Shown: piece by piece, positions 2,978 to 62,691 of the stretch
Layout of the letters: every line of letters begins with the position of its first letter
Position numbering within the stretch: position 1 is the first letter of the stretch
NCBI GenBank assembly: GCA_035548315.1
Contig: DASZTF010000044.1
Location: forward strand, 31,484 to 95,483
Direction of reading: 5' to 3'
DNA length: 64,000 nt
From: Minisyncoccota bacterium
Lineage (GTDB): Bacteria; Patescibacteriota; Minisyncoccia; Phycocordibacterales; Phycocordibacteraceae
Notes under the pieces: generated by a model
What the model saw: the letters and a program-made list of their open reading frames with translations, nothing else
What the model was told of the DNA's origin: nothing
Databases searched by the model: none
Made by a program: the position numbers and the translations under genes

Positions 2978-5065
2978 ATGGCAAAAGGAGCTGAAAAAGA
3001 GCCTAAAAAGAAGGCTTCTAAAGACTACGATGCATCGAGCATTACCGTGCTCGAGGGCCTCGAGCCGGTCCGCAAGCGACCGGGCATGTACATCGGTACT
3101 ACGGGTCCCGATGGTCTCCACCACCTGATCTGGGAAATCTTTGATAACTCGCGCGACGAAGCGATGGGTGGTCACGCAGACGACATTGAAGTCGCGCTCC
3201 TGCCGGGCGGCTATGTGCGCGTCGCGGACAACGGCCGCGGTATCCCAGTCGGCATTCACCCCAAGACCAAGGTGAGCGCACTCGAGACCATCATGACCAC
3301 GCTCCACGCCGGCGGTAAGTTCGGCGGGGAAGATTCGGGCTACAAAGTCTCCGGTGGTCTCCACGGCGTGGGTGCCTCGGTAGTGAACGCACTTTCCACG
3401 CATGCGAAAGCAGTCGTCTACAAAGACGGCGGCATCCACAAGCAGGAATATAAAATTGGTAAGCCGATGGGCAAGGTGAAGCAGGTTGGGAAGTCGAAGC
3501 TCCACGGCTCGATCATCACGTTCCGTCCCGACGACACTATCTTTACCGATGGCGTGAAGTGGAACTGGGACAAGATCATCTCGCACCTGCGCCAGCAAGC
3601 GTACCTCGTGAAGGGTGTGCGCATTACGGTGATCGATGCACGCGAGAATACGCTCGCCGCAAATGAGGAGGATGTGTTCTACCTCCGCGAGCTCGCGCTT
3701 GAGGTGCCGTCGATGACGTTCTACTTCGAGGGTGGGCTCAAATCGCTTGTCGCATTCAACAACAAGCACCAGGAAGCGGTGCACAAGAATATTTTCTATG
3801 TCGACAAGGAAGCGGACGGTGTGATGGTGGAAGTCGCGCTCCAGTATGTGGACGACATCACGCCGCGCATTCTCGCGTTCGCGAACAATACGTACAACAG
3901 CGAGGGCGGTACGCACATCACCGGATTCAAGACGGCGCTCACGCGCTCGCTCAACACGTATGGCCGCAATGCCAACATCCTGAAAGAAAAAGATGAGAAC
4001 TTCACGGGAGACGACGTGCTTGAGGGCATCACGGCGGTGGTGTCGGTAAAACTCCCAGAGATTCAGTTTGAAGGTCAGACCAAAGCAAAGCTTGGTTCTG
4101 TGGAGGCACAGGGCGCGACTGCAACGGTGTTCGGCGAAGCATTCGCCGCATTCCTCGAAGAGAACCCGGATGATGCAAAGGCTATTGTGAACAAAGTGCT
4201 CCTCGCGCTCAAGGCGCGCAAGGCAGCAAAGGCCGCAAAGGATTCCGTGCTCCGTAAGGGTGCCCTCGAGGGCATGACGCTCCCGGGCAAGCTCGCGGAC
4301 TGCCAGGTGAAGGCGCCAAGCGAAGCAGAACTCTTCATCGTGGAGGGAGACTCCGCAGGTGGCACGGCCAAGACCGGCCGCGATCGCCGCACGCAGGCGA
4401 TCCTCCCGCTGCGCGGTAAGATCCTCAATATCGAGCGCGCGCGTCTCGACCGCATGCTTGCATCGGAGCAGATTCGTAACCTCGTGGTCGCACTCGGCAC
4501 CGCGATCGGCGACGTGTTCGACCTCGAGAAGCTTCGCTATCACAAGATCATCATCGCGACCGACGCCGACGTGGACGGCGCACACATCCGCACGCTCCTC
4601 CTCACGCTCTTCTATCGCCACTTCCGCCCGATCCTCGATGGCGGATACATCTACATCGCGCAACCGCCGCTCTTCAAGATCATGAAGGGCAAGGATATCC
4701 GCTACGCGTACTCGGACGCTGAGCGCGATAAGGAGCTCAAGGACATGGGCGTCGCGGTGAATGAGGTCGCGATTGCAGAAGGAGGCGACGATCAGAGTGG
4801 CGAAGAAGGCGAGGCAGAAGCAGAGGAGACCACCGTTAAAAAAGCATCCAAAGTCCGCGTGCAGCGCTACAAAGGTCTCGGAGAAATGAACGCGTCGGAA
4901 CTTTGGGAGACCACGATGGACCCAGCGCGTCGCGTGCTGAAGCAGGTCACTATTGAAGACGCGCAGGACGCCGACCGCATGTTCGATGTGCTCATGGGGA
5001 ACGACGTCGCGAGCCGTAAGTCGTTCATCCAATCGAACGCGAAGCTCGCGAATCTTGATATTTAA
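2978..5065 (+). CDS. gyrB: DNA gyrase subunit B
   Basis: GHKL ATPase N-terminus (GLHHLIWEIFDNSRDEAMGG, GLHGVGASVVNALS), TOPRIM (LFIVEGDSAGG) and C-terminal tail typical of GyrB. 695 aa. Confidence 0.95.
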   Translation: MAKGAEKEPKKKASKDYDASSITVLEGLEPVRKRPGMYIGTTGPDGLHHLIWEIFDNSRDEAMGGHADDIEVALLPGGYVRVADNGRGIPVGIHPKTKVSALETIMTTLHAGGKFGGEDSGYKVSGGLHGVGASVVNALSTHAKAVVYKDGGIHKQEYKIGKPMGKVKQVGKSKLHGSIITFRPDDTIFTDGVKWNWDKIISHLRQQAYLVKGVRITVIDARENTLAANEEDVFYLRELALEVPSMTFYFEGGLKSLVAFNNKHQEAVHKNIFYVDKEADGVMVEVALQYVDDITPRILAFANNTYNSEGGTHITGFKTALTRSLNTYGRNANILKEKDENFTGDDVLEGITAVVSVKLPEIQFEGQTKAKLGSVEAQGATATVFGEAFAAFLEENPDDAKAIVNKVLLALKARKAAKAAKDSVLRKGALEGMTLPGKLADCQVKAPSEAELFIVEGDSAGGTAKTGRDRRTQAILPLRGKILNIERARLDRMLASEQIRNLVVALGTAIGDVFDLEKLRYHKIIIATDADVDGAHIRTLLLTLFYRHFRPILDGGYIYIAQPPLFKIMKGKDIRYAYSDAERDKELKDMGVAVNEVAIAEGGDDQSGEEGEAEAEETTVKKASKVRVQRYKGLGEMNASELWETTMDPARRVLKQVTIEDAQDADRMFDVLMGNDVASRKSFIQSNAKLANLDI

Positions 5066-5067
5066 AT

Positions 5068-5153
5068 AAAACAAAACACCGCATTCACTCGGGACAGTAC
5101 GTCTTGGCCGAGCGGCCGTGAGCGCTGGCTCGAGGGGATGCGGTGTTTTGTTT
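5068..5153. terminator. Long-range inverted repeat (16-nt arms AAACAAAACACCGCAT / ATGCGGTGTTTTGTTT) between convergent gyrB and the downstream minus-strand gene; probable bidirectional terminator
   Basis: Perfect 16-bp complementary arms, A-run 5' and T-run 3', GC-rich ~54-nt interior that can fold further. Confidence 0.5.
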
Positions 5154-5937
5154 AGCGGCGAACGTCGAAGCTCTTGGTGTCGGTGTTGTCGTTCTCGTTC
5201 GACTCGTTCACGTCGTGGTTAGCATCCACCGTGACCTTGAGGTCTTGGTTGTTGCCCACGTCGAGCTTACCGCGTGTGAAGTCGAGTGTAAGCGGGAGGG
5301 TGGCACCCGCTGCAAGCGACGGCTCGTCCTGGTCAAAGTCAAACGAGCGGTCGTTCTGCGTCGGGAAGACGACGCGGATGTTCCAGCTGCCAGTGGCATT
5401 CGTGCCGTTATTGGTCACAAGGATTTTTGCCACGAGCTCGTCGTCGGAGTTCATGGAATCATCGGAGACGAAGCGGCCGCTGCGATCGAGGTAGCCGATG
5501 TCGGTAATCTTTACGGTGAGATTCGCGAGTCCGTAATTGGAGACGGGGATCTGTACCGGGGTCGAGCCCGGCACGTAGTACGGGTACGCGATGGTCTGGT
5601 AGTACGTCTGCTGATACTGCGCGCTACCAGCGTTTGCGGTCTGCGTCGTTACGGGCGCTGCAGGCTCAGCGGGCGGGACCGTGTAGGAAGTCGTCGTCGC
5701 CGTGGTGGTAGCAGTGACGGTCTGCGTCGTGTCGAACGAAAGAGAGGTCGACGGCACGGTGGTGAGGGAGTTGTCGGTCGGGGTGCTGTTCGTAAAGGCA
5801 AGCGGAATGTAGCGCGCTGCCCAGATGGCGAGCACGATACCGATAAGAATGAGGGCGATGAACCCGACAACGGCAAGCGTGCCCACCGCGGTGCTGCGGC
5901 CGTGGGTCTTTTCCGTCGTAATCGTGGTTTGCTGCAT
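5152..5937 (-). CDS. Membrane-anchored surface protein with Thr-rich linker and CARDB-like beta-sandwich domain
   Basis: N-terminal TM (AVGTLAVVGFIALILIGIVLAIW), a T/A/P-rich low-complexity segment, and a C-terminal WNIRVVFPTQND...DVNESNENDN motif resembling CARDB. Start taken at MQQTT. Confidence 0.55.
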   Translation of the reverse strand: MQQTTITTEKTHGRSTAVGTLAVVGFIALILIGIVLAIWAARYIPLAFTNSTPTDNSLTTVPSTSLSFDTTQTVTATTTATTTSYTVPPAEPAAPVTTQTANAGSAQYQQTYYQTIAYPYYVPGSTPVQIPVSNYGLANLTVKITDIGYLDRSGRFVSDDSMNSDDELVAKILVTNNGTNATGSWNIRVVFPTQNDRSFDFDQDEPSLAAGATLPLTLDFTRGKLDVGNNQDLKVTVDANHDVNESNENDNTDTKSFDVRR

Positions 5938-6048
5938 ATAGAGGGTATTTACCACACGCTGTATTATTTGTCAAATTGGCCGCTTTGTGCCCGAATGTGG
6001 GGCCTATTGACAAAGTCAGTTTAGTAGTGTATTTATATCTAAGATTAT

Positions 6049-6723
6049 ATGAGCGCAGTAAATGCAGCCGTACGACTCGTACGTGCCGCCCAGCATGCCT
6101 GGGCGGCCCGTTTCCAGTTCCTCGTGACGTTCACGGGGGTGCTGTTCGTGACGCTCTCGGTGCTCATCTGGCTCGATTGGGTACCAGACGCTCCGGCTGC
6201 AACCACGCCCGTACCGACGACCCTCTCTGAGCTCCAGTCGCCGGACGCGGTGCAGGCCTTTGTATCACTCTCGGGCGAAGATCCGGTGAAGATCACCGCG
6301 CCGGCAATCGGGCTCTCGGCCACGATCAGCAACCCCACGACGACCAATGTCGAGGCACTCGACCAGTACCTGCTTACGGGCGCGGTGCGATACCCGACGT
6401 CGGCGCTGCTTGGGCAGAATGGGAACATGATCCTGTTTGGCCACTCGAGCTACCTGCCTATAGTGCACAACCAGGCGTACAAGACGTTCGATGGCATCCA
6501 GAATTTGAAGCAGGGTGATCTCATCACGGTCTCTTCATCCGGTCGCGCTTATACCTACAGTGTGGACACCGTGGCGCAGGAGAATGTATCGACTGGGGCC
6601 ATCCCGCTCACGAACGACGGCAAGCAGCACCTGACGCTCGCGACGTGTGACTCGTTCGGCACGAAGTCAGACCGGTTCGTCGTCATGGCGACCCTTGTAG
6701 AAAGCCACGCGCTCTCGAACTAA
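6049..6723 (+). CDS. Sortase family transpeptidase
   Basis: N-terminal TM anchor, catalytic His in NMILFGHSSY, the TLATC active-site cysteine motif, and a downstream Arg. Confidence 0.8.
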   Translation: MSAVNAAVRLVRAAQHAWAARFQFLVTFTGVLFVTLSVLIWLDWVPDAPAATTPVPTTLSELQSPDAVQAFVSLSGEDPVKITAPAIGLSATISNPTTTNVEALDQYLLTGAVRYPTSALLGQNGNMILFGHSSYLPIVHNQAYKTFDGIQNLKQGDLITVSSSGRAYTYSVDTVAQENVSTGAIPLTNDGKQHLTLATCDSFGTKSDRFVVMATLVESHALSN

Positions 6724-6832
6724 CGTTCGAGGTCGTGTGGGTTTCTGCAAACAATAGTGTTTGTAGGGACAACGGTGATGCTTCTGTGCAAACAGGAGGG
6801 CATCATGGTCTTCAAATGGAAGGGAACACGTC

Positions 6833-8098
6833 ATGTCTGAAGACAATCATGGGCCTCCGTCACAAGAGGCACACGAACAAGTGATCAATGAGCGTAACGA
6901 TGCTCGCACAAAACTCGAGCAGACGAAACGCGAGCTCAACGATAGCCGCCAGAAAACTCGCGACGAGGAGATCGCGCATAACGCCACCAGAACGGAGCGC
7001 GATGCGCAAAAGACTCGCGCAGCAAACTGGCGCGTCGTCGCGTTCATCGCCGCGATCGCCGCGTTGCTGTTCGCCATCGGCCTCGCGCTGTGCATGTTCC
7101 GTTCGTGCCAGTATTCGACGCCCGTTGCGGCGCCGGAGACCATCACGTTCCCGAACAGCTCATCCGATCCATCGGCGGACGCCGGCAAGCAGTGCATCAA
7201 GCAGCAACTGAAGCTGCTCGGCTCAGCGCGTGTCGACGCAGTGAAGGAAGCGAGGGATTTGTACGGCGGCACTTCCGCCGGGCGCGAATTCGTCGACTAC
7301 GTCACCAAGAACCCGGATGGCGACCCCAAGAAGGGGATGCTCAAGGGTCTCGCGACCCTCGGACAGCGCATCGCATGGAACTTCACCGCCAGCAACGGCG
7401 AAGGGTTCCATCTCGACGACAAGCGGAAGGTCTGCATCTGCCACGATTGGCATCATGCGCACACCAAACCGCCGGCGCCTCCGGTCACACACACCATCTG
7501 GCAGCACACCGAGATTCAAAACCTCGGCAACGGCTGCGCCACGATCGACATCACCAACCTGTTCTTCGCCGGTGAGTACGTCCGAGTGCCGGACGGGCAG
7601 GGTGGTGTGGAAACCGCGCAGGTGAAGCACGGCGAGTTGCACTTCGGCTACGACACTGCCGATGGACCGCTCCCGCCTCATTTGTGCGGCACGATCCAGC
7701 AGGGTCACGGCTCGATCGAGAACTGGTATAACAGCCTGTGCTCGGCGAACTGCAAACCGCTCGCTGACTACATCTTCAACATGCTGGATGCCATGCCGGA
7801 GGAACCGCGCCGTATTTTCACCGTCGAAATTGTTGACGGTCATATACGGCTCACGGCGCCGATGGCGATCATCCGCAAAGTGATGTACTTCTGCTACTCG
7901 TTCACGTTGACCGATGGCAGACGCTTCGAGACGCGGTTCTTCTACCTGACTCCTCCGGGCAGACGCCCAGGCGAGTCAGGCGCAGGGAACTTCGTCTCCT
8001 GGGGCCGGTCCATGCACGTGACGCTCAACGCAGCGCGCTGGCCTATGGACTGGCGTCACGACGCGCCGGATGACGATCACTACCTTCACGTCCAGTAA
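6833..8098 (+). CDS. Hypothetical single-pass membrane protein: N-terminal charged coiled-coil, TM helix, Cys-rich (12 Cys) ectodomain
   Basis: Residues ~10-65 are K/E/R/Q-rich heptad-like. The TM helix is AFIAAIAALLFAIGLALCMF. The remainder contains CICHDWHH, LCGTIQ, CSANC and similar. No family recognised. Confidence 0.5.
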   Translation: MSEDNHGPPSQEAHEQVINERNDARTKLEQTKRELNDSRQKTRDEEIAHNATRTERDAQKTRAANWRVVAFIAAIAALLFAIGLALCMFRSCQYSTPVAAPETITFPNSSSDPSADAGKQCIKQQLKLLGSARVDAVKEARDLYGGTSAGREFVDYVTKNPDGDPKKGMLKGLATLGQRIAWNFTASNGEGFHLDDKRKVCICHDWHHAHTKPPAPPVTHTIWQHTEIQNLGNGCATIDITNLFFAGEYVRVPDGQGGVETAQVKHGELHFGYDTADGPLPPHLCGTIQQGHGSIENWYNSLCSANCKPLADYIFNMLDAMPEEPRRIFTVEIVDGHIRLTAPMAIIRKVMYFCYSFTLTDGRRFETRFFYLTPPGRRPGESGAGNFVSWGRSMHVTLNAARWPMDWRHDAPDDDHYLHVQ

Positions 8099-8112
8099 CA
8101 CGGACACCTTGA

Positions 8113-8152
8113 TGGGGGGTGGCGGGCAGCGATTGCTCGCCGCCCACCCTTT
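8113..8152 (+). terminator. Rho-independent terminator (GC hairpin + TTTTT)
   Basis: gggtggcgggcagcgattgctcgccgcccaccc followed by tttttgt. Confidence 0.55.
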
Positions 8153-8225
8153 TTGTACGCTGTGCCTTAGAGGCATGGCAGGGGCATTTATTTAACCAGT
8201 GCGTTACCAGCATTACTCAACATCT

Positions 8226-10316
8226 ATGGATTTCACTAAAATCAGTGCCGTCATGGCCGCACAGAAACGCTCGATCGCGATCGGCGCTTTTGTCATTGTG
8301 TCGGTTGTGGGCATCGGGTTCGGCATCGGCCTTGCGACCGGTGTCGTGAACGTCCCGTCAGCACACGCGTGCTGCGGTATGCCACCCCCGCCCCCTCCTC
8401 CGCCACCCCCGCCCCCTCCTCCGCCACCCCCGCCCCCGCCCCCTCCTCCGCCCCCGCCGCCGGAGAAGCCGAGCTGTACACTTTCGGCTAATCCGTCGAG
8501 CCTCACGGGTGAGGGCGATTCAAAGCTTTCCTGGACCACTAAGAATGCGACGTCCGCTTCCATCAATCAGGGCATCGGTTCGGTGAGTCTCAATGGCAGC
8601 AAGAGCGTCCATGTGACGCAGACCATCACCTACACGCTTACCGCAAAGAGCAAGGACGGCACGAGCGTTAGCTGCCACACGACTGTCACGGTGAAGACCA
8701 AGCAGAATGCACCGACCTGTACGCTCACGGCGAGCCCGACCAAGATCAATCAGGGCGGCAAATCGACGCTTTCCTGGACGACCGACAATGCGACGTCGTT
8801 CTCGATCAACCAGGGCATCGGCAATGTAAAGCCGGTATCGGGTGGTTCGCTGAGTGTCTCTCCGATCCAGACGATTACCTACACTGGTACGGCTAAGGGC
8901 GACGGCGGCACCGTCACCTGCTCGACGACTATTACGGTCGTGACGAAGCAGAACGGCCCGACCTGTACGCTCTCGGCGTCTCCGCAGAACATCAAGCCGG
9001 GCAAGAGCTCCACGCTCACCTGGACGACCGATAACGCGACCTCCGTGTCAATCGATCACGGCATCGGCGACGTGAAGCTTTCCGGCAGCAAGGACGTCTC
9101 GCCGAACAAGGACACCACCTACACCCTCACGGCGCAGGGCAAGGGAGGTACGGTAACGTGTCAGACGACGATCACCGTGTCGGAGAATCCGGGCCCGGAG
9201 TGCACGCTCGACATCAGCCCAGACAACATCGACAAGGGCGATAACGCTACCATCAAGTGGACGACCGATAACGCTGAGTCGTTCAAGATCGACCACGGTA
9301 TCGGGAATGTGAAGCCGGTCGACAAGGGTTCGGAGAAAATCTCGCCGAACGACGACACCACCTACACGGGCACCGCGACGTCGAAGGACGGCCGCACCGC
9401 GACGTGTAAGGCATCGATCGACGTGGGTACTAACCACGGCGGTGGCGGTGGCCACAATAATAATGACGTCACCCTCACCGGCGCACCGACCCAGTCCCAG
9501 TCGTACGTGTATCTCTCGCAGATCCCGTACACCGGTCTTGACCTTGGTCCGGTGGGTACGGTCGTGTACTGGCTCGCGCTCGTGCTCTGGAGCCTCGGCC
9601 TCTCGTACCTCTTCCTCTTCAAATTCCTTCCGTTCGTGAAGGGTGGGGCGGTGGCGTTCGGTCACCAGGTGGGTGTCGCTCTCAACAGCGATGTACACAC
9701 TACGGCAAACGACCTCGTTCACGCGCACTACTCGCAGAATGTTGAGGACGTGCATATGCCGAATACGGAACCGATTGCTGAATCTACACTCGCGATGCCG
9801 AGCCGCGGCTACTCGACCTACGACGGCTTCCGCTCGTTCGCGACGGGTGGCGCGCTCTCGGTGGATGACATCGTGAAGGGCCTCTCGCGCCAGCCGGCTG
9901 CACCCGAACCGGTGCACGAAGCTCCGGCACCGATCGCGCCCGCACCGATGACTTTCGCTGACGAAGCACCGGCCATCCACCGCGAGGCTGACACGAACGT
10001 TCGCGGATTTATCGCCGCGGTCCTCGATGGCGATCGCAACGCGGTCTTCGGTATGCTCCGCACGATTGCGAAGGGCGGCGGAAGCTCGCAGGCGTTCCTC
10101 ACGGACGCAGTCTCCGCGCTCGATGACGCGTATCGCGCTCGCATCGACGGCACGCCCGTCGATCCGGAAGTGGCACGCATCCTTGCCGCGACGATGACGC
10201 CGACGCTCGAGCGCCTCATCGGCGCGCTCGCGACGGCAGTCGACTCGAGCTACTCGCAGGACTCGACCGCAGCGAAGCTCGCGCTCACCCGCGCGTTCGC
10301 CGTGATCGGGAAGTAA
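8226..10316 (+). CDS. Two-TM surface protein: signal-anchor, ~27-residue polyproline linker, five tandem Ig-like repeats, Gly-rich segment, second TM, ~220-aa cytoplasmic tail
   Basis: ATG at 8226 preferred over the track's GTG at 8199. The repeats follow the pattern CTL(T/S)ASP..I..G..STLSWTTDNATS.SI(N/D)(Q/H)GIG.VK...S.SP...TTYT.TA.G.GGTVTC.TTITV, five times. The internal IPYTG motif is followed by a hydrophobic helix and KF..K. Confidence 0.7.
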   Translation: MDFTKISAVMAAQKRSIAIGAFVIVSVVGIGFGIGLATGVVNVPSAHACCGMPPPPPPPPPPPPPPPPPPPPPPPPPPPEKPSCTLSANPSSLTGEGDSKLSWTTKNATSASINQGIGSVSLNGSKSVHVTQTITYTLTAKSKDGTSVSCHTTVTVKTKQNAPTCTLTASPTKINQGGKSTLSWTTDNATSFSINQGIGNVKPVSGGSLSVSPIQTITYTGTAKGDGGTVTCSTTITVVTKQNGPTCTLSASPQNIKPGKSSTLTWTTDNATSVSIDHGIGDVKLSGSKDVSPNKDTTYTLTAQGKGGTVTCQTTITVSENPGPECTLDISPDNIDKGDNATIKWTTDNAESFKIDHGIGNVKPVDKGSEKISPNDDTTYTGTATSKDGRTATCKASIDVGTNHGGGGGHNNNDVTLTGAPTQSQSYVYLSQIPYTGLDLGPVGTVVYWLALVLWSLGLSYLFLFKFLPFVKGGAVAFGHQVGVALNSDVHTTANDLVHAHYSQNVEDVHMPNTEPIAESTLAMPSRGYSTYDGFRSFATGGALSVDDIVKGLSRQPAAPEPVHEAPAPIAPAPMTFADEAPAIHREADTNVRGFIAAVLDGDRNAVFGMLRTIAKGGGSSQAFLTDAVSALDDAYRARIDGTPVDPEVARILAATMTPTLERLIGALATAVDSSYSQDSTAAKLALTRAFAVIGK
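8382..8462 (+). repeat. Imperfect 21-nt tandem repeat (CCACCCCCGCCCCCTCCTCCG-like) encoding a ~27-residue Pro run
   Basis: Direct reading of the sequence: two full 21-nt units plus a longer degenerate third. Confidence 0.85.
8472..9430 (+). repeat. Five tandem ~240-bp intragenic repeats (Ig-like domains)
   Basis: Repeated protein pattern with recurring codon blocks such as tggacgaccgataacgcgac. Confidence 0.8.
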
Positions 10317-10327
10317 CTCCACACAAG

Positions 10328-10364
10328 AAAACCGCCGCCTCCTTCGAGGCGGCGGGTTTCTTTT
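10328..10364. terminator. Bidirectional intrinsic terminator between convergent genes
   Basis: aaaccgccgcct-ccttcg-aggcggcgggttt flanked by an A-run and cttttg. Confidence 0.7.
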
Positions 10365-10367
10365 GCC

Positions 10368-12122
10368 TTAGATATTTGCGCGTTCTTTGATGCGCGCGAG
10401 GGTCGCATCGATAAATTCTTGGAGTGGCACCGTGGCCTTGTCGCCGTTGCGATTATTTTCTACCGTCATGGTGCCGGCACCTGCTTCTGCATCACCGAGC
10501 ACGATGAAGCACGGAACCTTCGCCGTCTTCACTGCGCGGATGCGCTTGCCGAGCGAGTCATCGGCATGCAGCTCTGCGCGGATGCCGGCTTCTTTGAGTT
10601 TGCTCATGACTTCGTTCGCATAGTCTGCGTGCTTCTCAGAGACAGGGAGCACCGCTGCCTGCACTGGCGCGAGCCAGAGCGGGAACACGCCCGCCGTGTG
10701 CTCGATGTAAACCGAGAGGAAACGCTCGAGCGAACCGGCGATCGCGAGGTGGATCATCACTGGCGTCTTCGGCGATCCATCGGTGTCGATGTATTCAAGT
10801 GCAAAGCGTGCCGGCTGCACGAAGTCGAGCTGGCCCGTAGCGAGCTGGTGTTCGCGGCCGATCGCATCCGTGGCCATGAAGTCGATCTTAGGTCCGTAGA
10901 AAGCTGCTTCCCCCCGCGCGATGAAGTAGTCGAACCCGCCGTTCTTCGCGATGGCTTCGAGCTGCGCTTCGGCGCTATCCCAGAGTGCGGATTCACCAAG
11001 GTACTTTTCGGGCGTAGCCGGATCACGGAAGGAAAGTCGTGCACGGAACTTCATGCCCATCGTGGCATAAAACTCCATCACCATCTGCATGATCGAACCA
11101 TATTCCTGCTCGATCTGGTCGGGGCGGCAGAACACATGGCTGTCGTCCTGCGTGATCGAGCGCACACGCGAGAGGCCCGCGAGCTCGCCCTTTTTCTCAT
11201 CGCGGTATACCGTCGTGGTCTCGAGGTAGCGGAGCGGGAGGTCGCGGTAGCTGCGGCCGCGCGACGCATAGATCTGCGTGTGGTGCGGGCAGTTCATCGG
11301 CTTCAGTACGAACTTGTCGCTCGTCTCCTGGCTCTTCACGAGGAAGAGTTCGTTGCCGAACTTGGCCCAGTGGCCAGACTTCTCGTAGAGCTCCTGCTTC
11401 GTGATGTGCGGGATCCATACGCGGTCGAACCCACGCTTGGTGCGCAGTTCTTGCGAGTACCGATGAATCTCTTCGCGCAGCACCGTGCCCTTGGGAGTGA
11501 AGAGTGGGAGGCCTGAACCGACAAGCTCGGAGAACGTAAATAGGTCGAGCTCCACCCCGAGTTTGCGGTGGTCACGCTTCTTCGCTTCCTCGAGCTGGAC
11601 CTTGTAGGCGTCGAGGTCGGCCTTGGTATCAAACGCCAGCCCATAAATACGCGTGAGCTGGGGCTTGTTCTCATCGCCGCGCCAGTAGGCGCCCGCGATG
11701 CGGTCGAGGAGGAATGCGTCGGCCTCAATGTCGTGCGCCGGGTGCTCGCTGTGACCACCGCGGCACAGGTCGGTAAAGCCCCCTGCGGTGTAGAGCGTGA
11801 TTTTCTCGCCCCTCTCTGTGATCTCGTCGATGAGTTCGAGCTTGAACGGGTTGTCCTTGAACCGGTCCTTTGCGTCGGCCTCGGACACTTCCACACCGGT
11901 CATGCTGGTCCAGGAGGGCAGGAGGTCGCGCATGTCCGCGGTGAGCTTCTCGAGTTCTTCTTCGCCAGGTTTTTCACCGGCTGAGAAATCAAAGTCGTAA
12001 TAAAAGCCATTGTCGACAGCAGGGCCGATGGTGGCCTTGGCGTGCGGGTAGCGCTCCGCCACGGCTGCAGCCAAGAGATGCGCGAGGGTGTGGCGCTTTT
12101 CAGGAAGTGAGGCCATGTACAT
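10368..12122 (-). CDS. thrS: Threonine--tRNA ligase lacking N-terminal TGS domain
   Basis: The N2 editing-domain region HTLAHLLAAAVAERYPHAKATIGPAVDNGFYYDFDF, class II catalytic core and anticodon-binding domain are all present. Begins at the editing domain. First ATG used; the track start is GTG at 12146. Confidence 0.85.
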   Translation of the reverse strand: MYMASLPEKRHTLAHLLAAAVAERYPHAKATIGPAVDNGFYYDFDFSAGEKPGEEELEKLTADMRDLLPSWTSMTGVEVSEADAKDRFKDNPFKLELIDEITERGEKITLYTAGGFTDLCRGGHSEHPAHDIEADAFLLDRIAGAYWRGDENKPQLTRIYGLAFDTKADLDAYKVQLEEAKKRDHRKLGVELDLFTFSELVGSGLPLFTPKGTVLREEIHRYSQELRTKRGFDRVWIPHITKQELYEKSGHWAKFGNELFLVKSQETSDKFVLKPMNCPHHTQIYASRGRSYRDLPLRYLETTTVYRDEKKGELAGLSRVRSITQDDSHVFCRPDQIEQEYGSIMQMVMEFYATMGMKFRARLSFRDPATPEKYLGESALWDSAEAQLEAIAKNGGFDYFIARGEAAFYGPKIDFMATDAIGREHQLATGQLDFVQPARFALEYIDTDGSPKTPVMIHLAIAGSLERFLSVYIEHTAGVFPLWLAPVQAAVLPVSEKHADYANEVMSKLKEAGIRAELHADDSLGKRIRAVKTAKVPCFIVLGDAEAGAGTMTVENNRNGDKATVPLQEFIDATLARIKERANI

Positions 12123-12151
12123 TCGAGAATACCACGATTTCCTCACGCGAC

Positions 12152-15100
12152 TTAGAGCGTTTTCAGGTTATCGATCGCGAGCGAGATCTCGCCGTTGCGG
12201 TCGGAGATGGTCGCTTTAAGCAGGAGGCAAGTGCCCGGAACGACTTTCGCGCCGACCTCTTTATAGAGTTTGGGGAAGACGACGCCCTCGATCGAGTCGG
12301 TCTTGTCTTCGAATTTCACGAACGCCATTTTCTCGCCCGACTTGGTGAGGATAGTGCGCACGTCAGAGACGAGCACGGGGATGATCACCGGCCGGCCTTT
12401 GTGCGGGTCGGCGTTGATTGCGCTTATCGTGAGCTTGGCGCGCGCGAGGGTATCTTCGTGTGCGTCGAGGGGGTGCCCTGATACGTAAATGCCGAGCAGT
12501 TCTTTTTCCGCGCGCAGTTTCTCACCGATCGGGAGTTCGGGCGCGGGGATAAGGGTGAGGGTGGGCGCCGCGAGCGCACCAAAGAGCGAGTCCTGCGGGG
12601 ATTCCTTGGCGGCATCGCGATGGAATTCGAGCATGCGGTCGATATTTTCCATGAGTGTGCCGCGTTCCGCGAAGGAATCGAGCGCTCCTGCCTTGATAAG
12701 CGATTCGAGCGATTTCTTATTCAAATTTTTTGATCCCACACGGATGAGAAAGTCAGAAATAGTTGCGAACGGTCCGTGCGCGGTACGCTCCGCAAGTATT
12801 GCTTCCGCGATGCCCTCGCCAAAGTTCTTGATCGAGGAGAGGCCGAATCGAATCGTGTCTTTCTTTTCTCCCACAATGGTGAACACCGCTCCGCTCTCGT
12901 TCACGTCGGGCGGCAGCACGGGTATGTGGAGGCGCTCTGCCTCAGCAATAAGGACCGCGATCGATTCAGTGTCGCCCGCGTCCGCCGTAAGGAGCGCCGT
13001 CATGTATTCCACCGGGTGGTTGGCCTTCATGTATGCGGTCTGGTACGCGACCTTCCCGTAGCTTGCGGCGTGCGCTTTGTTGAACCCGTACGCAGCGAAC
13101 GGTTCGATAAGCGCCCAGATCGCTTTCCCTTTTTCAGGCGGGAGCTTGCCGTACTCTACAAATCCTTTGAGCAACTTTTCTTTTTGTGCCTCCATTTCCG
13201 CAGGGATTTTCTTACCCATGGCCTTGCGGAGCGTGTCGGCTTCGAGCCAGGAATAGCCGCCGAGCGTAATGGCGGTGAGGAGCACGTCGTCCTGGTACAC
13301 GAGGAGTCCGTAGGACGCACCCAAGTATTCCTTCATGCGCGGATCCATGTACGTCACCAGTCCGGGATTACGCTTGCGCTCGATGTACTGCGGGATCGTT
13401 TCCATTGGGCCCGGGCGGTAGAGCGCCACCATGGCGTTGATATCGTGGATGGTGGTCGGTTTGAGCTCCTTCAAGTAGCGCGTCATGCCGGAGCCGTTCA
13501 GCTGGAACGTGCCTTCCGTCTCGCCCCGCGCGAGCATGGCAAACGTCTTCGCGTCGTCGAGCGGGATGTTCTCAATATCGATCACGATGCCGCGGGTTTC
13601 CTTCACGCGCTCCATGGCGTCGGCGAGGATGGAGAGGTTCTTGATCCCGAGGAAGTCGTACTTGAGGAGCCCCGCGTCTTCTACGGCGTGCATGTCGTAC
13701 TGCGTGATGAGCTTGCCCGTTTTCGGATCGGTCTGGAGTGGCGTCCATTCGGTAAGGGGAGTCGGTGATATCACCACGCCCGCGGCATGCACGCCGGTAT
13801 GGCGCGCAGAGCCCTCGATGCGCATCGCGAGGTCGAGTATTTCTTTCACGTCTTCGTCTTCGGTATAGAGCTGCTTGAGTTCGGGCTCTTCTTTAAACGC
13901 GCGTTCGATGGTCATCGGGAATCCTTGCTGGCCGATGGGGATGAGCTTAGCGATGCGGTCGCCCGTGCCGTAGCTGTGCCCGAGCGCGCGCGCCACATCG
14001 CGTACTGCTGCGCGCGCCATCATGGTGCCGAAGGTGCCGATCTGCGCGACGTGGTCTTCGCCATAACGCTGCTTGGCGTACGCGATCATTTCGTCGCGGC
14101 GAGTATCGGCGTAGTCCATATCGATATCGGGTGCTTTCGGACGCTCGGGGTTGAGGAATCGTTCGAAGGGGAGTTGGTATTCGAGCGGATCGACGTTCGT
14201 GATGCCGGTCACATAGGAGACGAGCGATCCGGCGGCCGATCCGCGCGTGGTCGTGAGAATACCCGCCTGCTTGGCGAACGTGAGCAGGTCGGACACCACG
14301 AGGAAGTACGGCGCGAACCCTTTTTCGATGATCACGCCGAGCTCGTACTCGAGTCGCTTAACGACCGCCGGATTTTCCTTGGAGAGTCCGCGTGCCGTGA
14401 GACCTTTGTAGGCTTTCTCGCGCAACATATCGGCGTGCGTTTTACCTGGCTCCTCGGGAAAATTGGGGAACACCCAGCTCCCGAGCGTGAGCGAGACATT
14501 ACAGCGCTCCGCAATTTCTCCCGAACGGTCGACTGCGTCTTCCATGCCCTTAAATCGTTTACGCATCTCCTTTTCGGTAACGAAGGAAAAGTCCTCCTCC
14601 TCATTGCGGTCTGCCTGCCCGTGCTGGATGCGCCGCATCACTGATGTCGCTTCGCGATCGTCGGGGTCGAGGTAGTACACGTCCTGCTGTGCGACCAGCG
14701 GCACGCCGCTTCGCTTCGAAAGCTCCATCACCTTGCGCATTTTTTCTTCGTGGCCCGCGGCTTTGGGGTGATGGGTGATTTCAAGAAACAGATTATCCTT
14801 CCCGAAAATGCTCGACCACTCGGCGAGCGCGGCGCCCGCCGCCTCGTCCTGCCCGCTCGCGAGGAGGCGGGGCACATCACCCGCAAACGACGGCATGAGC
14901 GCGATGAGACCATGCGCGTGTTCTCGGATAAGGTCCATGTCCATGAGCGGTCGGTCGAAGAATCCTTCCGTGAACGATCTCGTCACGAGCGCCATGAGGT
15001 TCTTGTAGCCGGTATTATTTTCTGCGAGCAGCACGAGACGCGTGCGCTTTTCAGCGGTAGCCTGGTCCCGATCGAACCGCGAGCGCGGCGCAATGTACGC

Positions 15101-15316
15101 GTCGACGCCGATAATCGGTTTGATGCCGGCCTTCGCACACTTCTGATAGAGCTCGATCGCGCCGTGGAGGTTACCGTTATCGGTGAGTCCGAGCGCGGGC
15201 ATACCGTACTTCTTCGCGCGCTCGACCAGTTCGTCGACTTTGGGCAGCGCCTGGAGGAAGCTGTAGTGGCTGTGTGTGTGGAGGTGGACGTACTTTCCAT
15301 TACTCGTGCCGGCCAT
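12152..15316 (-). CDS. dnaE: DNA polymerase III alpha subunit
   Basis: PHP domain start MAGTSNGKYVHLHTHSHYSFLQALPK, palm and fingers motifs, 1054 aa. Stop is 2 nt from the thrS start region, so co-oriented and operon-like. Confidence 0.95.
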   Translation of the reverse strand: MAGTSNGKYVHLHTHSHYSFLQALPKVDELVERAKKYGMPALGLTDNGNLHGAIELYQKCAKAGIKPIIGVDAYIAPRSRFDRDQATAEKRTRLVLLAENNTGYKNLMALVTRSFTEGFFDRPLMDMDLIREHAHGLIALMPSFAGDVPRLLASGQDEAAGAALAEWSSIFGKDNLFLEITHHPKAAGHEEKMRKVMELSKRSGVPLVAQQDVYYLDPDDREATSVMRRIQHGQADRNEEEDFSFVTEKEMRKRFKGMEDAVDRSGEIAERCNVSLTLGSWVFPNFPEEPGKTHADMLREKAYKGLTARGLSKENPAVVKRLEYELGVIIEKGFAPYFLVVSDLLTFAKQAGILTTTRGSAAGSLVSYVTGITNVDPLEYQLPFERFLNPERPKAPDIDMDYADTRRDEMIAYAKQRYGEDHVAQIGTFGTMMARAAVRDVARALGHSYGTGDRIAKLIPIGQQGFPMTIERAFKEEPELKQLYTEDEDVKEILDLAMRIEGSARHTGVHAAGVVISPTPLTEWTPLQTDPKTGKLITQYDMHAVEDAGLLKYDFLGIKNLSILADAMERVKETRGIVIDIENIPLDDAKTFAMLARGETEGTFQLNGSGMTRYLKELKPTTIHDINAMVALYRPGPMETIPQYIERKRNPGLVTYMDPRMKEYLGASYGLLVYQDDVLLTAITLGGYSWLEADTLRKAMGKKIPAEMEAQKEKLLKGFVEYGKLPPEKGKAIWALIEPFAAYGFNKAHAASYGKVAYQTAYMKANHPVEYMTALLTADAGDTESIAVLIAEAERLHIPVLPPDVNESGAVFTIVGEKKDTIRFGLSSIKNFGEGIAEAILAERTAHGPFATISDFLIRVGSKNLNKKSLESLIKAGALDSFAERGTLMENIDRMLEFHRDAAKESPQDSLFGALAAPTLTLIPAPELPIGEKLRAEKELLGIYVSGHPLDAHEDTLARAKLTISAINADPHKGRPVIIPVLVSDVRTILTKSGEKMAFVKFEDKTDSIEGVVFPKLYKEVGAKVVPGTCLLLKATISDRNGEISLAIDNLKTL

Positions 15317-28700: not shown

Positions 28701-29032
28701 AGTTCAATACTACCTATCAGACGTCGCTCGGCGGAGCGGAAGGATTCCAGTATTACTGCGTAGGCACGTGCACGCTGCCGTCGCCTATCTTTGCGTATAA
28801 CACTATGATCGCACTCACAAACGGCGGCACGCGCACTATGTCGTACCTTGCTCATGGCAGTAGCGTTGACTCAAATGGGCACACGACAGCTACGGGTTCG
28901 CCTACAGGCCACGACAACTACTTTGACATCACGGGAGCCGTCGGAGCGCTCTACCCAGCAAGTTTCAACGGGTGGACGCTTTCAAACAACTACAACATGG
29001 TAACGGGAGCCGCGTTCTCAAACAATCCATGA
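25763..29032 (+). CDS. Large secreted multidomain protein: signal peptide, PG_binding_1-like domain, poly-Gly linker, Ig-like domain, Fn3-like domain, ~300-aa glycine-rich (GGxGG) domain, second Fn3-like domain, C-terminal parallel beta-helix-like domain
   Basis: Signal peptide MKKWGLAFAVLSIVLTPHVASA. The PG-binding-like segment is ATGPDVTALQSWLMSQGYTISAGATGYFGPQTQTALSAYQ. The Ig-like segment TTAPTVSMTAPSDGSTVTG...VQFKLDGSSLG...HTLTAVARDAAGN follows. Two Fn3-like stretches are present (TWTTDE..SKVVYG...YHFAVVSADASGN and TWTTNENATSQVEYG...YHYRVRSSDASGN). The Gly-rich block begins TWTVPADWNSSNNTIEVIGGGAGAAG. The C-terminus carries repeated NYFD/NYV/YKYNF beta-helix-like rungs. Confidence 0.8.
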   Translation: MKKWGLAFAVLSIVLTPHVASATSIADLQAEVLRLVQLVQSLEAELAARGTTTTSSCPALTRDLTLNATGPDVTALQSWLMSQGYTISAGATGYFGPQTQTALSAYQSVHLIFPAVGYLGPLTRSSIGTVCTQTTTTTSTTTTISAGGGGGSRNNGGGGGGGGGGGGGGGGGGDTTAPTVSMTAPSDGSTVTGASVAVSATASDDTAVIGVQFKLDGSSLGSEDTSDPYVLSWDSTGVSDGSHTLTAVARDAAGNTTTATSVTVTVDNAGPVLSAIASTTDTTVATTTWTTDESSDSKVVYGTTSSYGTTVFNASRVTSHELVLSGLASNTTYHFAVVSADASGNTSTSSDKTFTTQAGSQTVVYITSGSTWTVPADWNSSNNTIEVIGGGAGAAGYASGNAPVGGGGGAYSKIVNTNLTPSATIGIHIGVGGVASTSGGDTYLCNATSNCGSLLGSAVIVGAQGGQRGVATGTPSGGQGGAASAGIGTTKYSGGNGGIPQSGTVISGVGGGGAAGPNGNGAAGGATTGSSNFTWGGSGGGGSGGGTAGANATSTAGVGANGGDNSNGVGHGVGAVNASAGGNGTGGTAGGGGGAGGNPGFSTDNAGSGGAGGAGTEWDATHGAGGGGGGSGACQVGATVGTGGNGGLYGGGGGGGCGTAGVGAQGVIVVTYGGSSDTTAPVISSISSGTPSSSGATITWTTNENATSQVEYGLTSSYTATTTLDSTLTTSHSVTLSGLSSGTTYHYRVRSSDASGNLATSSDQTFTTASGLDDGLSGAPSATIQHPTLLDSYTKKPDWNVAGVDYAVGIPSAVTLADWTTYSHSGCTVDSVTNHWIRCDNQTGLVFDGLDFTLHGGATLYLVNDTNTTVQNSKFGVPHSPNSYSIQMTGTSEDMTMKYNYFDTGGTASAIRAHCGTIVFEYNYVIHQQQQVIQVGANTGESCNAALTYKYNFIDDANIASGSHMNYQQLQLNTLTLDDEFNTTYQTSLGGAEGFQYYCVGTCTLPSPIFAYNTMIALTNGGTRTMSYLAHGSSVDSNGHTTATGSPTGHDNYFDITGAVGALYPASFNGWTLSNNYNMVTGAAFSNNP

Positions 29033-52926: not shown

Positions 52927-52927
52927 A

Positions 52928-53629: not shown

Positions 53630-53631
53630 GG

Positions 53632-55500: not shown

Positions 55501-55533
55501 ATGCAGCATGAATACGCGTGAATAATGAGCCTT

Positions 55534-62476: not shown

Positions 62477-62639
62477 GTGAGCAGTATAGCGTAGCTGTGG
62501 AGAGTGGTTTGCGTTTATGTGTTGGCGTGCTATACCGTAAGGGTATGACGAATCGTGTGTATCGCATGCATAAGCGTTGGAACTTCCGCACCGCGGCGGG
62601 TTCTTCGTGCATGTGGAATTAGGCCTATCTATCCACACG

Positions 62640-62675
62640 AAACGAAAACCCGCCCCCTCAGGCGGGTTTTCGTTT
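62640..62675. promoter_or_regulatory. Perfect 15-bp hairpin (aaacgaaaacccgcc-ccctca-ggcgggttttcgttt) in a divergent intergenic region
   Basis: Direct reading. Both flanks are A/T-containing, so it could terminate a transcript from either strand. Confidence 0.5.
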
Positions 62676-62691
62676 ATCACACACCATACCT

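What the first reader, a model, noticed from the sequence alone, without database searches (positions are those of the whole stretch)
5152..10316. Sortase-centred surface locus without a canonical LPXTG substrate in the window
A sortase (6049-6723; His ... TLATC ... Arg) is flanked by three unusual envelope proteins. Divergent from it is a TM-anchored Thr-rich CARDB-like protein. Downstream is a coiled-coil/TM/12-Cys ectodomain protein. Last is a 700-aa protein with polyPro linker, 5 Ig-like repeats, an internal IPYTG motif directly followed by a hydrophobic helix and a basic cluster (KF..K), then a 220-aa cytoplasmic domain. The IPYTG + TM + basic arrangement resembles a sortase sorting signal but is internal rather than C-terminal. 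If cleaved there, the Ig-repeat ectodomain would be transferred to the wall and the cytoplasmic domain released, an arrangement I have not seen described. None of the large secreted proteins in the window ends in LPXTG plus TM, so the sortase substrate is unclear.
Basis: partly seen in the sequence, partly recalled or inferred. Interest (0 to 1): 0.6.

Follow-up and report, generated by a model that had tools for sequence, protein, structure and literature searches.

The report
Sortase substrate with internal sorting signal
A conserved four-gene cassette in ultra-small Patescibacteria pairs an unclassified sortase with one surface protein whose sortase-type signal (IPYTG, membrane helix, basic residues) lies mid-protein, ahead of a conserved 231-residue cytoplasmic tail. 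Known sortase substrates do not have this layout, and cleavage has not been shown.

Summary

The window comes from a Paceibacteria/Kaiserbacteria-like patescibacterium. Between gyrB and thrS-dnaE lies a cassette of four genes:
- a TM-anchored CARDB protein on the minus strand
- a sortase (H132/C200/R209)
- a fast-diverging secreted Cys-rich protein
- an Ig-repeat protein with ...YLSQ-IPYTG-LDLGPxGT + TM + K/R + tail

Main evidence:
- **Motif conservation:** P, T and G are essentially invariant in 233 unique relatives.
- **Gene linkage:** 52 of 53 loci with enough flank have the sortase within 8 kb, in several different gene orders.
- **Canonical versions:** sister lineages carry the same motif as an ordinary C-terminal signal (29-44 aa to the stop), next to the same sortase clade.
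- **Fusions:** two natural fusions (sortase-CARDB, and substrate-PYTG-TM-TM-CARDB) tie the parts together.
- **Tail:** it holds an invariant short motif and a helical domain modelled at pLDDT above 90. Its only fold hits, all weak, are to clamp-loader subunits.
- **Prior description:** no Pfam or NCBIfam model and no paper found describes the signal or the tail.

Best reading: a dedicated sortase cleaves at T445|G446 and leaves a 260-aa membrane remnant. Cleavage, the acceptor and the tail's function are inferred, not shown. I class it as a new variant of a known kind.

The parts
5152..5955 (-). TM-anchored, Thr-rich CARDB protein of 267 aa. The TM helix is at about aa 19-45 (nt 5821-5901) and the CARDB domain at aa 168-260 (nt 5176-5454). 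It is transcribed divergently from the sortase.
   Evidence: It matches Pfam PF07705 at E 9e-9. It holds the same position and strand in almost every cassette locus that reaches that far. A CARDB domain is fused to the sortase in L006 and to a PYTG substrate in L048.
6049..6723 (+). Membrane-anchored sortase of 224 aa, with a TM helix at about aa 21-42. The catalytic residues are His132 (nt 6442-6444), Cys200 in TLATC (nt 6646-6648) and Arg209 (nt 6673-6675).
   Evidence: It matches PF04203 at 75.2 bits against a cutoff of 26.6. No NCBIfam class model reaches its cutoff; the best is class E at 43.8 bits against 160. It aligns to 2kw8 and 2xwg. H, C and R are conserved in 58 orthologues.
6833..8098 (+). 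Cys-rich envelope protein of 421 aa. It has a charged N-terminal helix, a TM helix at about aa 63-88 (nt 7019-7096), and an ectodomain of about 330 aa with 8 of the protein's 10 Cys. It is the fast-diverging 'middle gene' of the cassette.
   Evidence: A gene of 290-555 aa with an N-terminal signal or TM helix sits in this slot in every locus examined except L004. 54 of 57 such proteins form one family by single linkage, at only 12-21% identity to the window copy. There is no Pfam or NCBIfam hit. The AF2 model was unusable, at pLDDT 38.
8117..8145 (+). Terminator-like hairpin with a 13-bp stem and a T-run, between the middle gene and the substrate gene.
   Evidence: This is a consensus match only.
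8199..10316 (+). Putative sortase substrate of 705 aa: signal sequence, CC, Pro27, 4 Ig-like repeats, extended IPYTG signal, TM helix, cytoplasmic tail.
8274..8369 (+). N-terminal hydrophobic signal or anchor (aa 26-50), ending in A-H-A (aa 55-57), a plausible signal-peptidase site.
   Evidence: Read directly from the sequence. Orthologues have equivalent N-termini followed by 'GPPCC' and a Pro-rich spacer.
8370..8462 (+). C58-C59, then a run of 27 prolines (aa 62-88).
   Evidence: The CC + poly-Pro arrangement recurs in several orthologues.
8475..9482 (+). Four tandem Ig-like repeats of about 83 aa, each bracketed by a Cys pair (93/159, 174/241, 256/321, 335/403).
   Evidence: There are only weak Pfam hits to Ig-type families. 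Orthologue length ranges from 556 to 1217 aa with a near-constant tail, so the ectodomain (and probably the repeat number) varies.
9501..9620 (+). Extended sorting signal SYVYLSQ-IPYTG-LDLGPVGT plus the hydrophobic helix (aa 452-474). IPYTG is nt 9522-9536. The predicted scissile bond is T445|G446.
   Evidence: The consensus over 233 unique sequences is L-A-[YF]-[VL]-Y-L-S-Q-[IVLM]-P-Y-T-G-[LF]-[DE]-L-G-P-x-G-T-x-x-Y-W. It is the only such site in the window.
9621..10313 (+). Cytoplasmic tail, aa 475-705 (231 aa). It has K475/K481, the conserved motif GYSTYDGFRSFATGGALSVDDIVKGL (aa 537-562, nt 9807-9884), a Pro/Ala-rich linker, and a helical domain of about 105 aa (aa 599-703, nt 9993-10307).
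   Evidence: Conservation is shown. In the AF2 model the helical domain has pLDDT above 90. The only Foldseek hits are weak ones to clamp-loader subunits, over about 113 columns. There is no Pfam, NCBIfam or PDB sequence match. A profile search found 1348 cluster representatives.
10332..10355 (.). Bidirectional terminator-like hairpin with a 10-bp stem, between the substrate gene and the convergent thrS.

Best explanation
This is a dedicated, vertically inherited sortase system of Paceibacteria-type Patescibacteria with one main substrate. The proposed steps are below. Every mechanistic step is inferred unless marked as shown.

1. The 705-aa protein is exported through its N-terminal signal.
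2. Export stops at the helix at aa 452-474, with K475 and K481 on the inside. The 231-aa tail therefore stays in the cytoplasm.
3. The membrane-anchored sortase, whose His132/Cys200/Arg209 triad is shown by sequence, recognises the extended ...YLSQ-IPYTG-LDLGP signal. That signal sits about 6 residues outside the membrane.
4. The sortase cleaves between T445 and G446 and transfers the ectodomain (CC, Pro27, 4 Ig-like repeats) to an amine acceptor. By analogy the acceptor is most likely a peptidoglycan precursor.
5. A 260-aa remnant (G446, TM helix, tail) stays in the membrane.

The tail's invariant short motif and helical domain probably act before cleavage, by holding, clustering or positioning the precursor at the sortase. 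They may also act afterwards, as a membrane-bound record that processing has happened.

The CARDB membrane protein is a physical partner of the sortase. The hypervariable Cys-rich protein is an exposed accessory component.
For: **Enzyme**
- The sortase passes the Pfam cutoff, and its triad is conserved in 58 orthologues.

**Signal**
- The site has all three parts of a sorting signal: an LPXTG-like pentapeptide, a 23-aa hydrophobic helix, and basic residues.
- Among 233 unique relatives, P is present in 233, T in 227 and G in 232. Position 1 is I, V, L or M. The x position can change to Q, R or H. This is the LPXTG pattern.

**Linkage**
- 52 of 53 substrate loci with at least 6.5 kb upstream have a sortase within 8 kb.
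- 16 of 17 sortase loci from metagenomes with at least 5 kb downstream have a PxTG + TM gene.
- Adjacency survives rearrangement. The sortase is two genes upstream in the window. It is immediately upstream in L089, divergent in L006 and immediately downstream in L090.

**Canonical versions of the same signal**
- P0088 has 29 aa after the motif and P0045 has 44 aa. Both sit next to the same sortase clade, which scores 261 bits for the L006 sortase against my sortase HMM.

**Fusions**
- The L006 sortase carries a C-terminal CARDB domain.
- L048 4691-6700 reads: signal, cohesin, SQAPYTG, TM, 45-aa loop, TM, CARDB. Only cleavage at PYTG would separate its two halves.

**Tail under selection**
- The tail has invariant residues, and the helical domain is modelled at pLDDT above 90.
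- The same C-terminal domain turns up in deeper subfamilies such as P0103, P0100 and P0054.

**Wall present**
- Two neighbouring 1000-aa secreted proteins carry PG_binding_1 domains.

**Precedent for a useful remnant**
- In S. gordonii a two-component system senses the peptide left in the membrane after sortase A processing. This is cited in PMC11326707.
Against: - There is no experimental evidence of cleavage in any member of the family.
- Most loci are orthologous cassettes in one clade, so the 52/53 and 16/17 counts are not independent events. Independence rests on about five distinct gene arrangements and two fusions.
- One short-tail relative (P0016, in L087) has no sortase within 8 kb.
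- Tyr at the x position is far more conserved than x usually is in LPXTG, and about 20 flanking residues are conserved too. The segment may therefore do something besides, or instead of, sortase recognition.
- Standard LPXTG-anchor models do not detect it.
- A low-complexity spacer sits at the N-terminal end of the ectodomain, not next to the motif as in classical wall-spanning regions.
- The fold match of the tail is weak: E is 4e-3 at best, with no match at E <= 1e-3.
- The acceptor is unknown.
Confidence: 0.72

Rival explanations
1. The 705-aa protein is a permanent single-pass membrane protein that is never cleaved. On this view the conserved YLSQIPYTGLDLGP segment is a juxtamembrane structural or partner-binding element. 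The cytoplasmic domain couples the surface Ig-repeat stalk to something inside the cell, and the sortase's real substrates lie elsewhere in the genome.
For: - The conserved block is much longer than a pentapeptide, and Tyr at x is nearly fixed.
- The tail is strongly conserved, as expected for a working transmembrane link.
- LPXTG-anchor models do not match the segment.
- Only 64 kb of this genome is visible, so other substrates cannot be excluded.
Against: - It does not explain why P, T and G are the invariant positions while x can change.
- It does not explain why a sortase stays adjacent through at least four gene orders.
- It does not explain why lineages that lost the tail keep the motif as a textbook C-terminal signal beside the same sortase.
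- It does not explain the L048 fusion, whose two extracellular halves are joined only through PYTG-TM-loop-TM.
Confidence: 0.13
2. The sortase does cleave at IPYTG, but it ligates the ectodomain to another protein rather than to peptidoglycan. The partner would be the CARDB membrane protein, the Cys-rich protein, or another copy of the substrate. The result would be a pilus-like or tethered surface assembly.
For: - The CARDB and Cys-rich genes are conserved in the cassette.
- CARDB is fused to the sortase in L006 and to a substrate in L048.
- The best class-model scores, all sub-threshold, are to classes E, C and D.
- Some relatives carry isopeptide or fimbrial-type domains (P0116).
Against: - Only 2 of 120 relatives have a YPK-type pilin motif, and none has an E-box.
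- Neither the CARDB protein nor the Cys-rich protein has a sorting signal.
- The sortase scores 33 bits against the class C cutoff of 160.
- A fused CARDB domain fits an accessory or binding module as well as it fits an acceptor.
Confidence: 0.12
3. The long ORF is an artefact: a sequencing frameshift, a misassembly, or read-through that joins an ordinary sortase substrate to a separate cytoplasmic gene.
For: Many database entries for the tail alone are short proteins of 150-400 aa.
Against: - Those short entries are mostly gene calls truncated at contig ends or at internal GTG/TTG starts.
- The continuous ORF with the same order of parts recurs in over 80 species-level genomes and in 233 unique sequences from independent assemblies.
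Confidence: 0.01

Closest known systems
Sortase / LPXTG cell-wall sorting in Gram-positive bacteria (classes A-F)
   Same: The enzyme is a membrane-anchored sortase-fold protein with a His-Cys-Arg triad. The substrate has an N-terminal signal and an [ILVM]PxTG pentapeptide, followed by a hydrophobic helix and basic residues.
   Different: The signal is not C-terminal: 231 conserved residues follow the helix, where classical signals have a handful of basic residues. The sortase reaches no class cutoff. The signal is a 25-residue signature with a fixed Tyr. It occurs in Patescibacteria, not in Bacillota or Actinomycetota.
Dedicated one-sortase/one-substrate pairs with variant motifs (SrtB-IsdC NPQTN; oral streptococcal SrtB-AbpA, PMC4974636)
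   Same: The sortase gene is adjacent to a single cognate substrate that has a non-canonical, extended recognition sequence.
   Different: Those substrates end just after the signal. Those sortases are class B. Those loci are accessory, not embedded among gyrB, thrS and dnaE.
Sensing of the cleaved sorting-signal remnant (C-peptide) by the S. gordonii SGO_1180 two-component system (as cited in PMC11326707)
   Same: The membrane fragment left after sortase cleavage has a function of its own.
   Different: There the remnant is the bare signal of about 30 aa, read by a separate kinase. Here the remnant would carry its own conserved 231-aa cytoplasmic region. No kinase is linked to it.
Other C-terminal sorting systems (exosortase/PEP-CTERM, archaeosortase/PGF-CTERM, rhombosortase/GlyGly-CTERM, myxosortase/MYXO-CTERM; PMC3237569, PMC11980579)
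   Same: The signal is tripartite (motif, TM helix, basic cluster) and is paired with a dedicated processing enzyme encoded nearby.
   Different: The enzyme families differ. All of those signals are strictly C-terminal. None carries a folded cytoplasmic domain.
Helical region of clamp-loader subunits (E. coli gamma/tau, delta', B. subtilis delta)
   Same: These are the only fold matches for the tail's helical domain, over about 113 aligned columns at rmsd 2-3 A.
   Different: The E-values are weak (at best 4e-3) and identity is 12-18%. A profile search of PDB sequences found no link. The tail has no AAA+ module. That the matched part is the domain III collar is my inference from which parts of those proteins are all-helical. 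This is a lead about shape, and possibly about oligomerisation, not a homology claim.

Membership tests
Sortase superfamily (Pfam PF04203) | The sequence matches the family model above the curated cutoff. | tested here: met
   It scores 75.2 bits against a cutoff of 26.6, E 5e-21, covering profile positions 1-125 of 125.
Sortase superfamily (Pfam PF04203) | A catalytic His, the Cys of a TLxTC motif, and an Arg are present. | tested here: met
   H132, C200 (TLATC) and R209 align to the GH / TLITC / KRY positions of 2kw8. They are at least 97% conserved in 58 orthologues.
Sortase superfamily (Pfam PF04203) | Transpeptidase activity on the cognate motif. | not testable with these tools
   This needs biochemistry.
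Sortase classes A-F (NCBIfam class models) | The score reaches the curated cutoff of one class model. | tested here: not met
   The scores are class E 43.8 against 160, C 33.2 against 160, D 30.9 against 165, SrtD 31.4 against 140, and F 22.6 against 166. Classes A and B are not listed at E <= 0.1. The generic TIGR01076 model scores 32.1 against 39.35. No phylogeny with reference sequences was built.
Class C (pilus-assembling) sortase locus | Substrates carry a pilin motif (conserved Lys, YPK-type) and an E-box. Several LPXTG pilins lie in the locus. | tested here: not met
   [YF]PK occurs in 2 of 120 relatives and not in the window protein. The E-box pattern occurs in 0 of 120. The locus has only one signal-bearing gene.
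LPXTG-type cell-wall sorting signal | An LPXTG-like pentapeptide is present. | tested here: met
   IPYTG lies at aa 442-446. The family shows [IVLM]P[YQRH]TG with P, T and G essentially invariant.
LPXTG-type cell-wall sorting signal | A hydrophobic segment, then positively charged residues, follow directly after the motif. | tested here: met
   The hydrophobic helix is aa 452-474, followed by K475 and K481. Orthologues mostly have R or K in the same place.
LPXTG-type cell-wall sorting signal | The signal sits at the extreme C-terminus of the precursor. | tested here: not met
   231 aa follow the helix. The median distance from motif to stop is 266 aa in 102 relatives, with a range of 29-407. 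Sister lineages with 29-44 aa do meet this feature.
LPXTG-type cell-wall sorting signal | Curated anchor models (Pfam Gram_pos_anchor, NCBIfam LPXTG anchor) recognise the signal. | tested here: not met
   Neither the window signal nor the canonical P0088 signal gave a hit at E <= 10.
LPXTG-type cell-wall sorting signal | The precursor is cleaved between T and G and linked to peptidoglycan. | not testable with these tools
   This needs proteomics or muropeptide analysis. Indirect support is that neighbouring proteins with PG_binding_1 domains imply a wall.
CARDB domain proteins (PF07705) | The sequence matches the family model above the cutoff. | tested here: met
   It scores 35.9 bits against a cutoff of 22.7, E 9e-9, at aa 168-260.

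The most novel reading that the evidence does not exclude
Sortase processing in these bacteria is a two-sided event. The enzyme moves an adhesive Ig-repeat stalk onto the wall. At the same moment it creates a membrane protein with its own conserved cytoplasmic domain, which oligomerises or signals inside the cell. This would be a sortase-driven link between surface assembly and the cytoplasm. It would be core to Paceibacteria and possibly tied to how these tiny episymbionts attach to hosts. The CARDB partner and the hypervariable Cys-rich protein would act as specificity components.
Probability: 0.25. Interest if true: 0.8.

Novelty: new variant of a known kind. Interest (0 to 1): 0.62.

Why it matters
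More than half of CPR/Patescibacteria genomes encode a sortase (PMC6744442), yet I found no paper describing their substrates. Standard LPXTG models also miss this signal.

This work defines three things:
- a concrete recognition signature, ...YLSQ[IV]PYTG[LF][DE]LGP
- a dedicated substrate family with about 1350 cluster representatives
- a conserved four-gene cassette

If cleavage is confirmed, sortase signals need not be C-terminal, and a sortase could produce two functional products from one precursor. The signature also offers a handle on the surface structures of uncultured episymbionts, and possibly a new specificity for sortase-based protein ligation.

Tried and rejected
- **Middle protein, homologues:** the word-indexed search found a single protein, 97% identical.
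- **Middle protein, structure:** The two-sequence AF2 model was unusable at pLDDT 38, so it was not sent to fold search.
- **Tail, sequence level:** a profile search against PDB sequences gave only a chance-level hit at E 0.9. Pfam and NCBIfam scans of the signal and of the tail alone gave nothing meaningful.
- **Literature:** searches for PYTG with sortase, sortase with Parcubacteria, Patescibacteria, Paceibacteria or Minisyncoccota, and internal sorting signals found no description of this system.
- **Rejected, artefactual gene fusion:** the architecture recurs across many assemblies.
- **Rejected, class C pilus locus:** there is no pilin motif or E-box.
- **Rejected, second TM helix placing the tail outside:** only two hydrophobic segments exist in the protein.
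- **Not possible:** a whole-genome census of sortases and PYTG proteins per genome, because only 64 kb of this genome and flanks of at most 10 kb elsewhere could be read.

Full report
**What is in the window**

The region 5152-10316 holds four real ORFs between gyrB (2978-5065, +) and the convergent thrS (10368-12146, -) and dnaE (12152-15316, -). Relatives of these proteins come almost only from Patescibacteria, in genomes labelled Paceibacterota, Kaiserbacteria or Parcubacteria. The rest of the window is housekeeping: rpoB/rpoC, dnaG, rpoD, SMC, hisS. It also holds two secreted proteins of about 1000 aa with PG_binding_1 domains, and a cytochrome bd oxidase.

**Checking the observation**

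- **Sortase (6049-6723).** It passes the Pfam cutoff at 75.2 bits against 26.6. It has an N-terminal TM helix. H132, C200 (TLATC) and R209 align with the catalytic residues of B. anthracis SrtA, 2kw8, and are conserved in 58 orthologues.
- **Sortase class.** It reaches no NCBIfam class cutoff. The best score is class E at 43.8 bits against 160. I treat it as an unclassified sortase typical of these bacteria.
- **Divergent gene (5152-5955, -).** It encodes a TM-anchored, Thr-rich CARDB protein (E 9e-9).
- **Middle gene (6833-8098).** It encodes a charged N-terminal helix, a TM helix and a Cys-rich ectodomain. The protein has 10 Cys, not 12.
- **705-aa protein (8199-10316).**
  - At the N-terminus it has a signal ending in AHA, then C58-C59 and 27 consecutive Pro.
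  - It has four Cys-bracketed Ig-like repeats, not five.
  - IPYTG lies at aa 442-446, followed by a 23-aa hydrophobic helix (aa 452-474), then K475 and K481.
  - A further 231 residues follow the helix.
- **Other substrates.** A relaxed six-frame scan of the whole window found no other sortase-signal-like site in a credible gene.

**Is the motif conserved?**

Yes, strongly. Of the 120 best homologues, 102 carry [LIVMF]P[YHS]TG followed by a TM helix. Across 233 unique sequences the signature is L-A-[YF]-[VL]-Y-L-S-Q-[IVLM]-P-Y-T-G-[LF]-[DE]-L-G-P-x-G-T-x-x-Y-W. P is present in 233, T in 227 and G in 232. The x position occasionally changes to Q, R or H. That is how an LPXTG-type site behaves.

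The distance from motif to stop codon ranges from 29 to 407 aa, with a median of 266. The same signal therefore exists both as a textbook C-terminal sorting signal and as an internal one. The canonical case is P0088...YLSQIPYTG, helix, YKVK, stop.

**Is it linked to the sortase?**

- **Same cassette elsewhere.** The order gyrB | CARDB(-) | sortase | middle gene | PYTG protein | thrS(-) | dnaE(-) recurs in L002, L003 and L004. It also recurs throughout the 80 loci returned by a scan of species-representative genomes. In that scan 183 species encode a relative of the tail.
- **From the substrate side.** 52 of 53 loci with at least 6.5 kb upstream have a sortase within 8 kb.
- **From the sortase side.** 16 of 17 metagenome loci with at least 5 kb downstream have a PxTG + TM gene.
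- **Independence.** These counts are inflated by shared ancestry. The informative point is that adjacency survives rearrangement:
  - L089: sortase immediately upstream.
  - L088: two small ORFs lie in between.
  - L006, Campbellbacteria: sortase divergent from the short-tail P0088.
  - L090: sortase immediately downstream of the short-tail P0045.
- **Exception.** L087, which carries P0016 with a 97-aa tail, has no sortase nearby.

**Fusions**

- The L006 sortase is a single 465-aa protein: TM helix, sortase domain, linker, CARDB domain.
- L048 4691-6700 reads: signal, cohesin domain, Gly/Ser linker, YLSQAPYTG, TM helix, 45-aa loop, a second TM helix resembling the N-terminus of the CARDB protein, then a CARDB domain.
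- These fusions tie CARDB to both enzyme and substrate. In the L048 case, only cleavage at PYTG could separate two extracellular modules.

**The tail**

- **Conservation.** It is not junk. It has an invariant short motif (GYSxYDGFKSFAxxGALSIDDIVKGL, aa 537-562 here) and a C-terminal domain of about 105 aa (F..AL..GDR..VF...CALDDAYRAR.DG...AVDSSYS.G.TGAKLALTRALA).
- **Model.** AF2 with a 76-sequence alignment gave mean pLDDT 79. It shows a long TM helix and a helical C-terminal domain at pLDDT above 90.
- **Fold.** Foldseek against the PDB returned clamp-loader subunits (gamma/tau, delta', delta) as its top 36 hits. These cover about 113 columns at rmsd 2-3 A, but E is 4e-3 at best. A profile search found no sequence-level link. 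I take this as a hint of a collar-like helical bundle that might oligomerise, not as homology.
- **Breadth.** The same C-terminal domain, sometimes with an extra 'ExRAHA...EDGW' domain, occurs in deeper PYTG subfamilies.
- **Family size.** A profile search of 1.84 billion cluster representatives found 1348 members at E <= 1e-3 and 800 at E <= 1e-10.
- **Annotation.** Neither Pfam nor NCBIfam recognises the signal or the tail.

**The middle gene**

A gene of 290-555 aa with a signal or TM helix, usually Cys-rich, sits in this slot in nearly every locus. 54 of 57 link into one family, at only 12-21% identity to the window copy. It is evolving fast, as exposed surface components often do. Its fold could not be predicted.

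**Most likely mechanism**

*Shown by sequence or comparison:*
- an intact sortase
- a tripartite signal with LPXTG-like conservation
- persistent gene linkage
- canonical C-terminal versions of the same signal
- a conserved single-TM topology that places the tail inside the cell

*Inferred:*
- Sec export
- arrest of export at the helix
- attack by C200 on the T445-G446 bond
- transfer of the ectodomain (CC, Pro27, 4 Ig-like repeats) to a wall precursor
- retention of a 260-aa membrane remnant

The role of the tail is open. My preferred guess is that it holds or clusters the precursor at the sortase before cleavage. It may also act afterwards, as with the S. gordonii system that senses the remnant peptide. 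I put 0.72 on the motif being a true cleavage site for the adjacent sortase.

**Rivals**

- **Uncleaved transmembrane protein (0.13).** It explains the tail but not the motif pattern, the linkage or the short-tail forms.
- **Ligation to a protein partner instead of the wall (0.12).** The CARDB fusions keep it alive. It lacks a pilin motif or an E-box.
- **Artefactual ORF fusion (0.01).** Recurrence across assemblies excludes it.

**Novelty**

Sortases are known to be common in these bacteria (PMC6744442). I found no paper describing their substrates, the PYTG signature, or any sortase substrate with a folded cytoplasmic domain behind the signal. The system works like a sortase/LPXTG pair but fails the 'C-terminal' criterion and the class A-F criteria. 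I therefore class it as a new variant of a known kind.

Noticed in passing
window 58420-60794 (+): Cytochrome bd oxidase subunits I and II are present (PF01654 E 1e-145; PF02322 E 3e-69). This is a respiratory or oxygen-scavenging enzyme in a genome type usually described as lacking respiratory chains. An FAD-linked oxidase (60791-62680, -) lies next to it.
   Followed up: no
window 25763-29032 and 29055-32090 (+): Two adjacent secreted proteins of about 1000 aa carry PG_binding_1, Big_7 and fn3-like domains and no sorting signal. Wall attachment in this organism seems to use non-covalent peptidoglycan binding as well as the sortase route.
   Followed up: partly
L006 6458-7855 (-): In a Campbellbacteria-type contig the sortase and a CARDB domain are one 465-aa protein. 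It sits divergent to a PYTG protein with a canonical 29-aa C-terminal signal.
   Followed up: yes
L048 4691-6700 (+): This is a second PYTG paralogue in one genome. It reads signal, cohesin domain, SQAPYTG, TM helix, 45-aa loop, TM helix, CARDB domain, so a substrate is fused to the CARDB membrane protein.
   Followed up: yes
alignment A1 (orthologues of window 9621-10313): Many orthologues carry tandem 'VEPxYENVEP' repeats in the cytoplasmic linker between the short motif and the helical domain. The window copy has a degenerate Pro/Ala-rich stretch instead. Repeated Tyr-containing acidic motifs might be binding or modification sites.
   Followed up: no
window 8370-8462 (+) and orthologue N-termini: The predicted mature N-terminus starts with a conserved Cys-Cys ('GPPCC' in orthologues), followed by a proline-rich rod of 27 Pro here. 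If the C-terminus is wall-anchored, this end is distal. The paired Cys could disulfide-link the Cys-rich middle protein, but this was not tested.
   Followed up: no
P0204 (325 aa, contig of 40 kb): This relative has an N-terminal TM helix like that of the CARDB protein, joined directly to the TM helix and tail. It has no ectodomain and no PYTG. It could be a deletion derivative, or evidence that the tail works on its own.
   Followed up: no
window 51700-55509 (-): A MacB/FtsX permease, an ABC ATPase and a HlyD-like adaptor lie together. A similar trio lies a few kb from thrS in L006.
   Followed up: no
L087 (P0016) and relatives P0018, P0084, P0086: This PYTG subfamily has a tail of 92-98 aa ending in '...SENGSAPRIVIxR[NS]'. 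In L087 it has no sortase within 8 kb upstream. It is the one exception to the linkage.
   Followed up: partly
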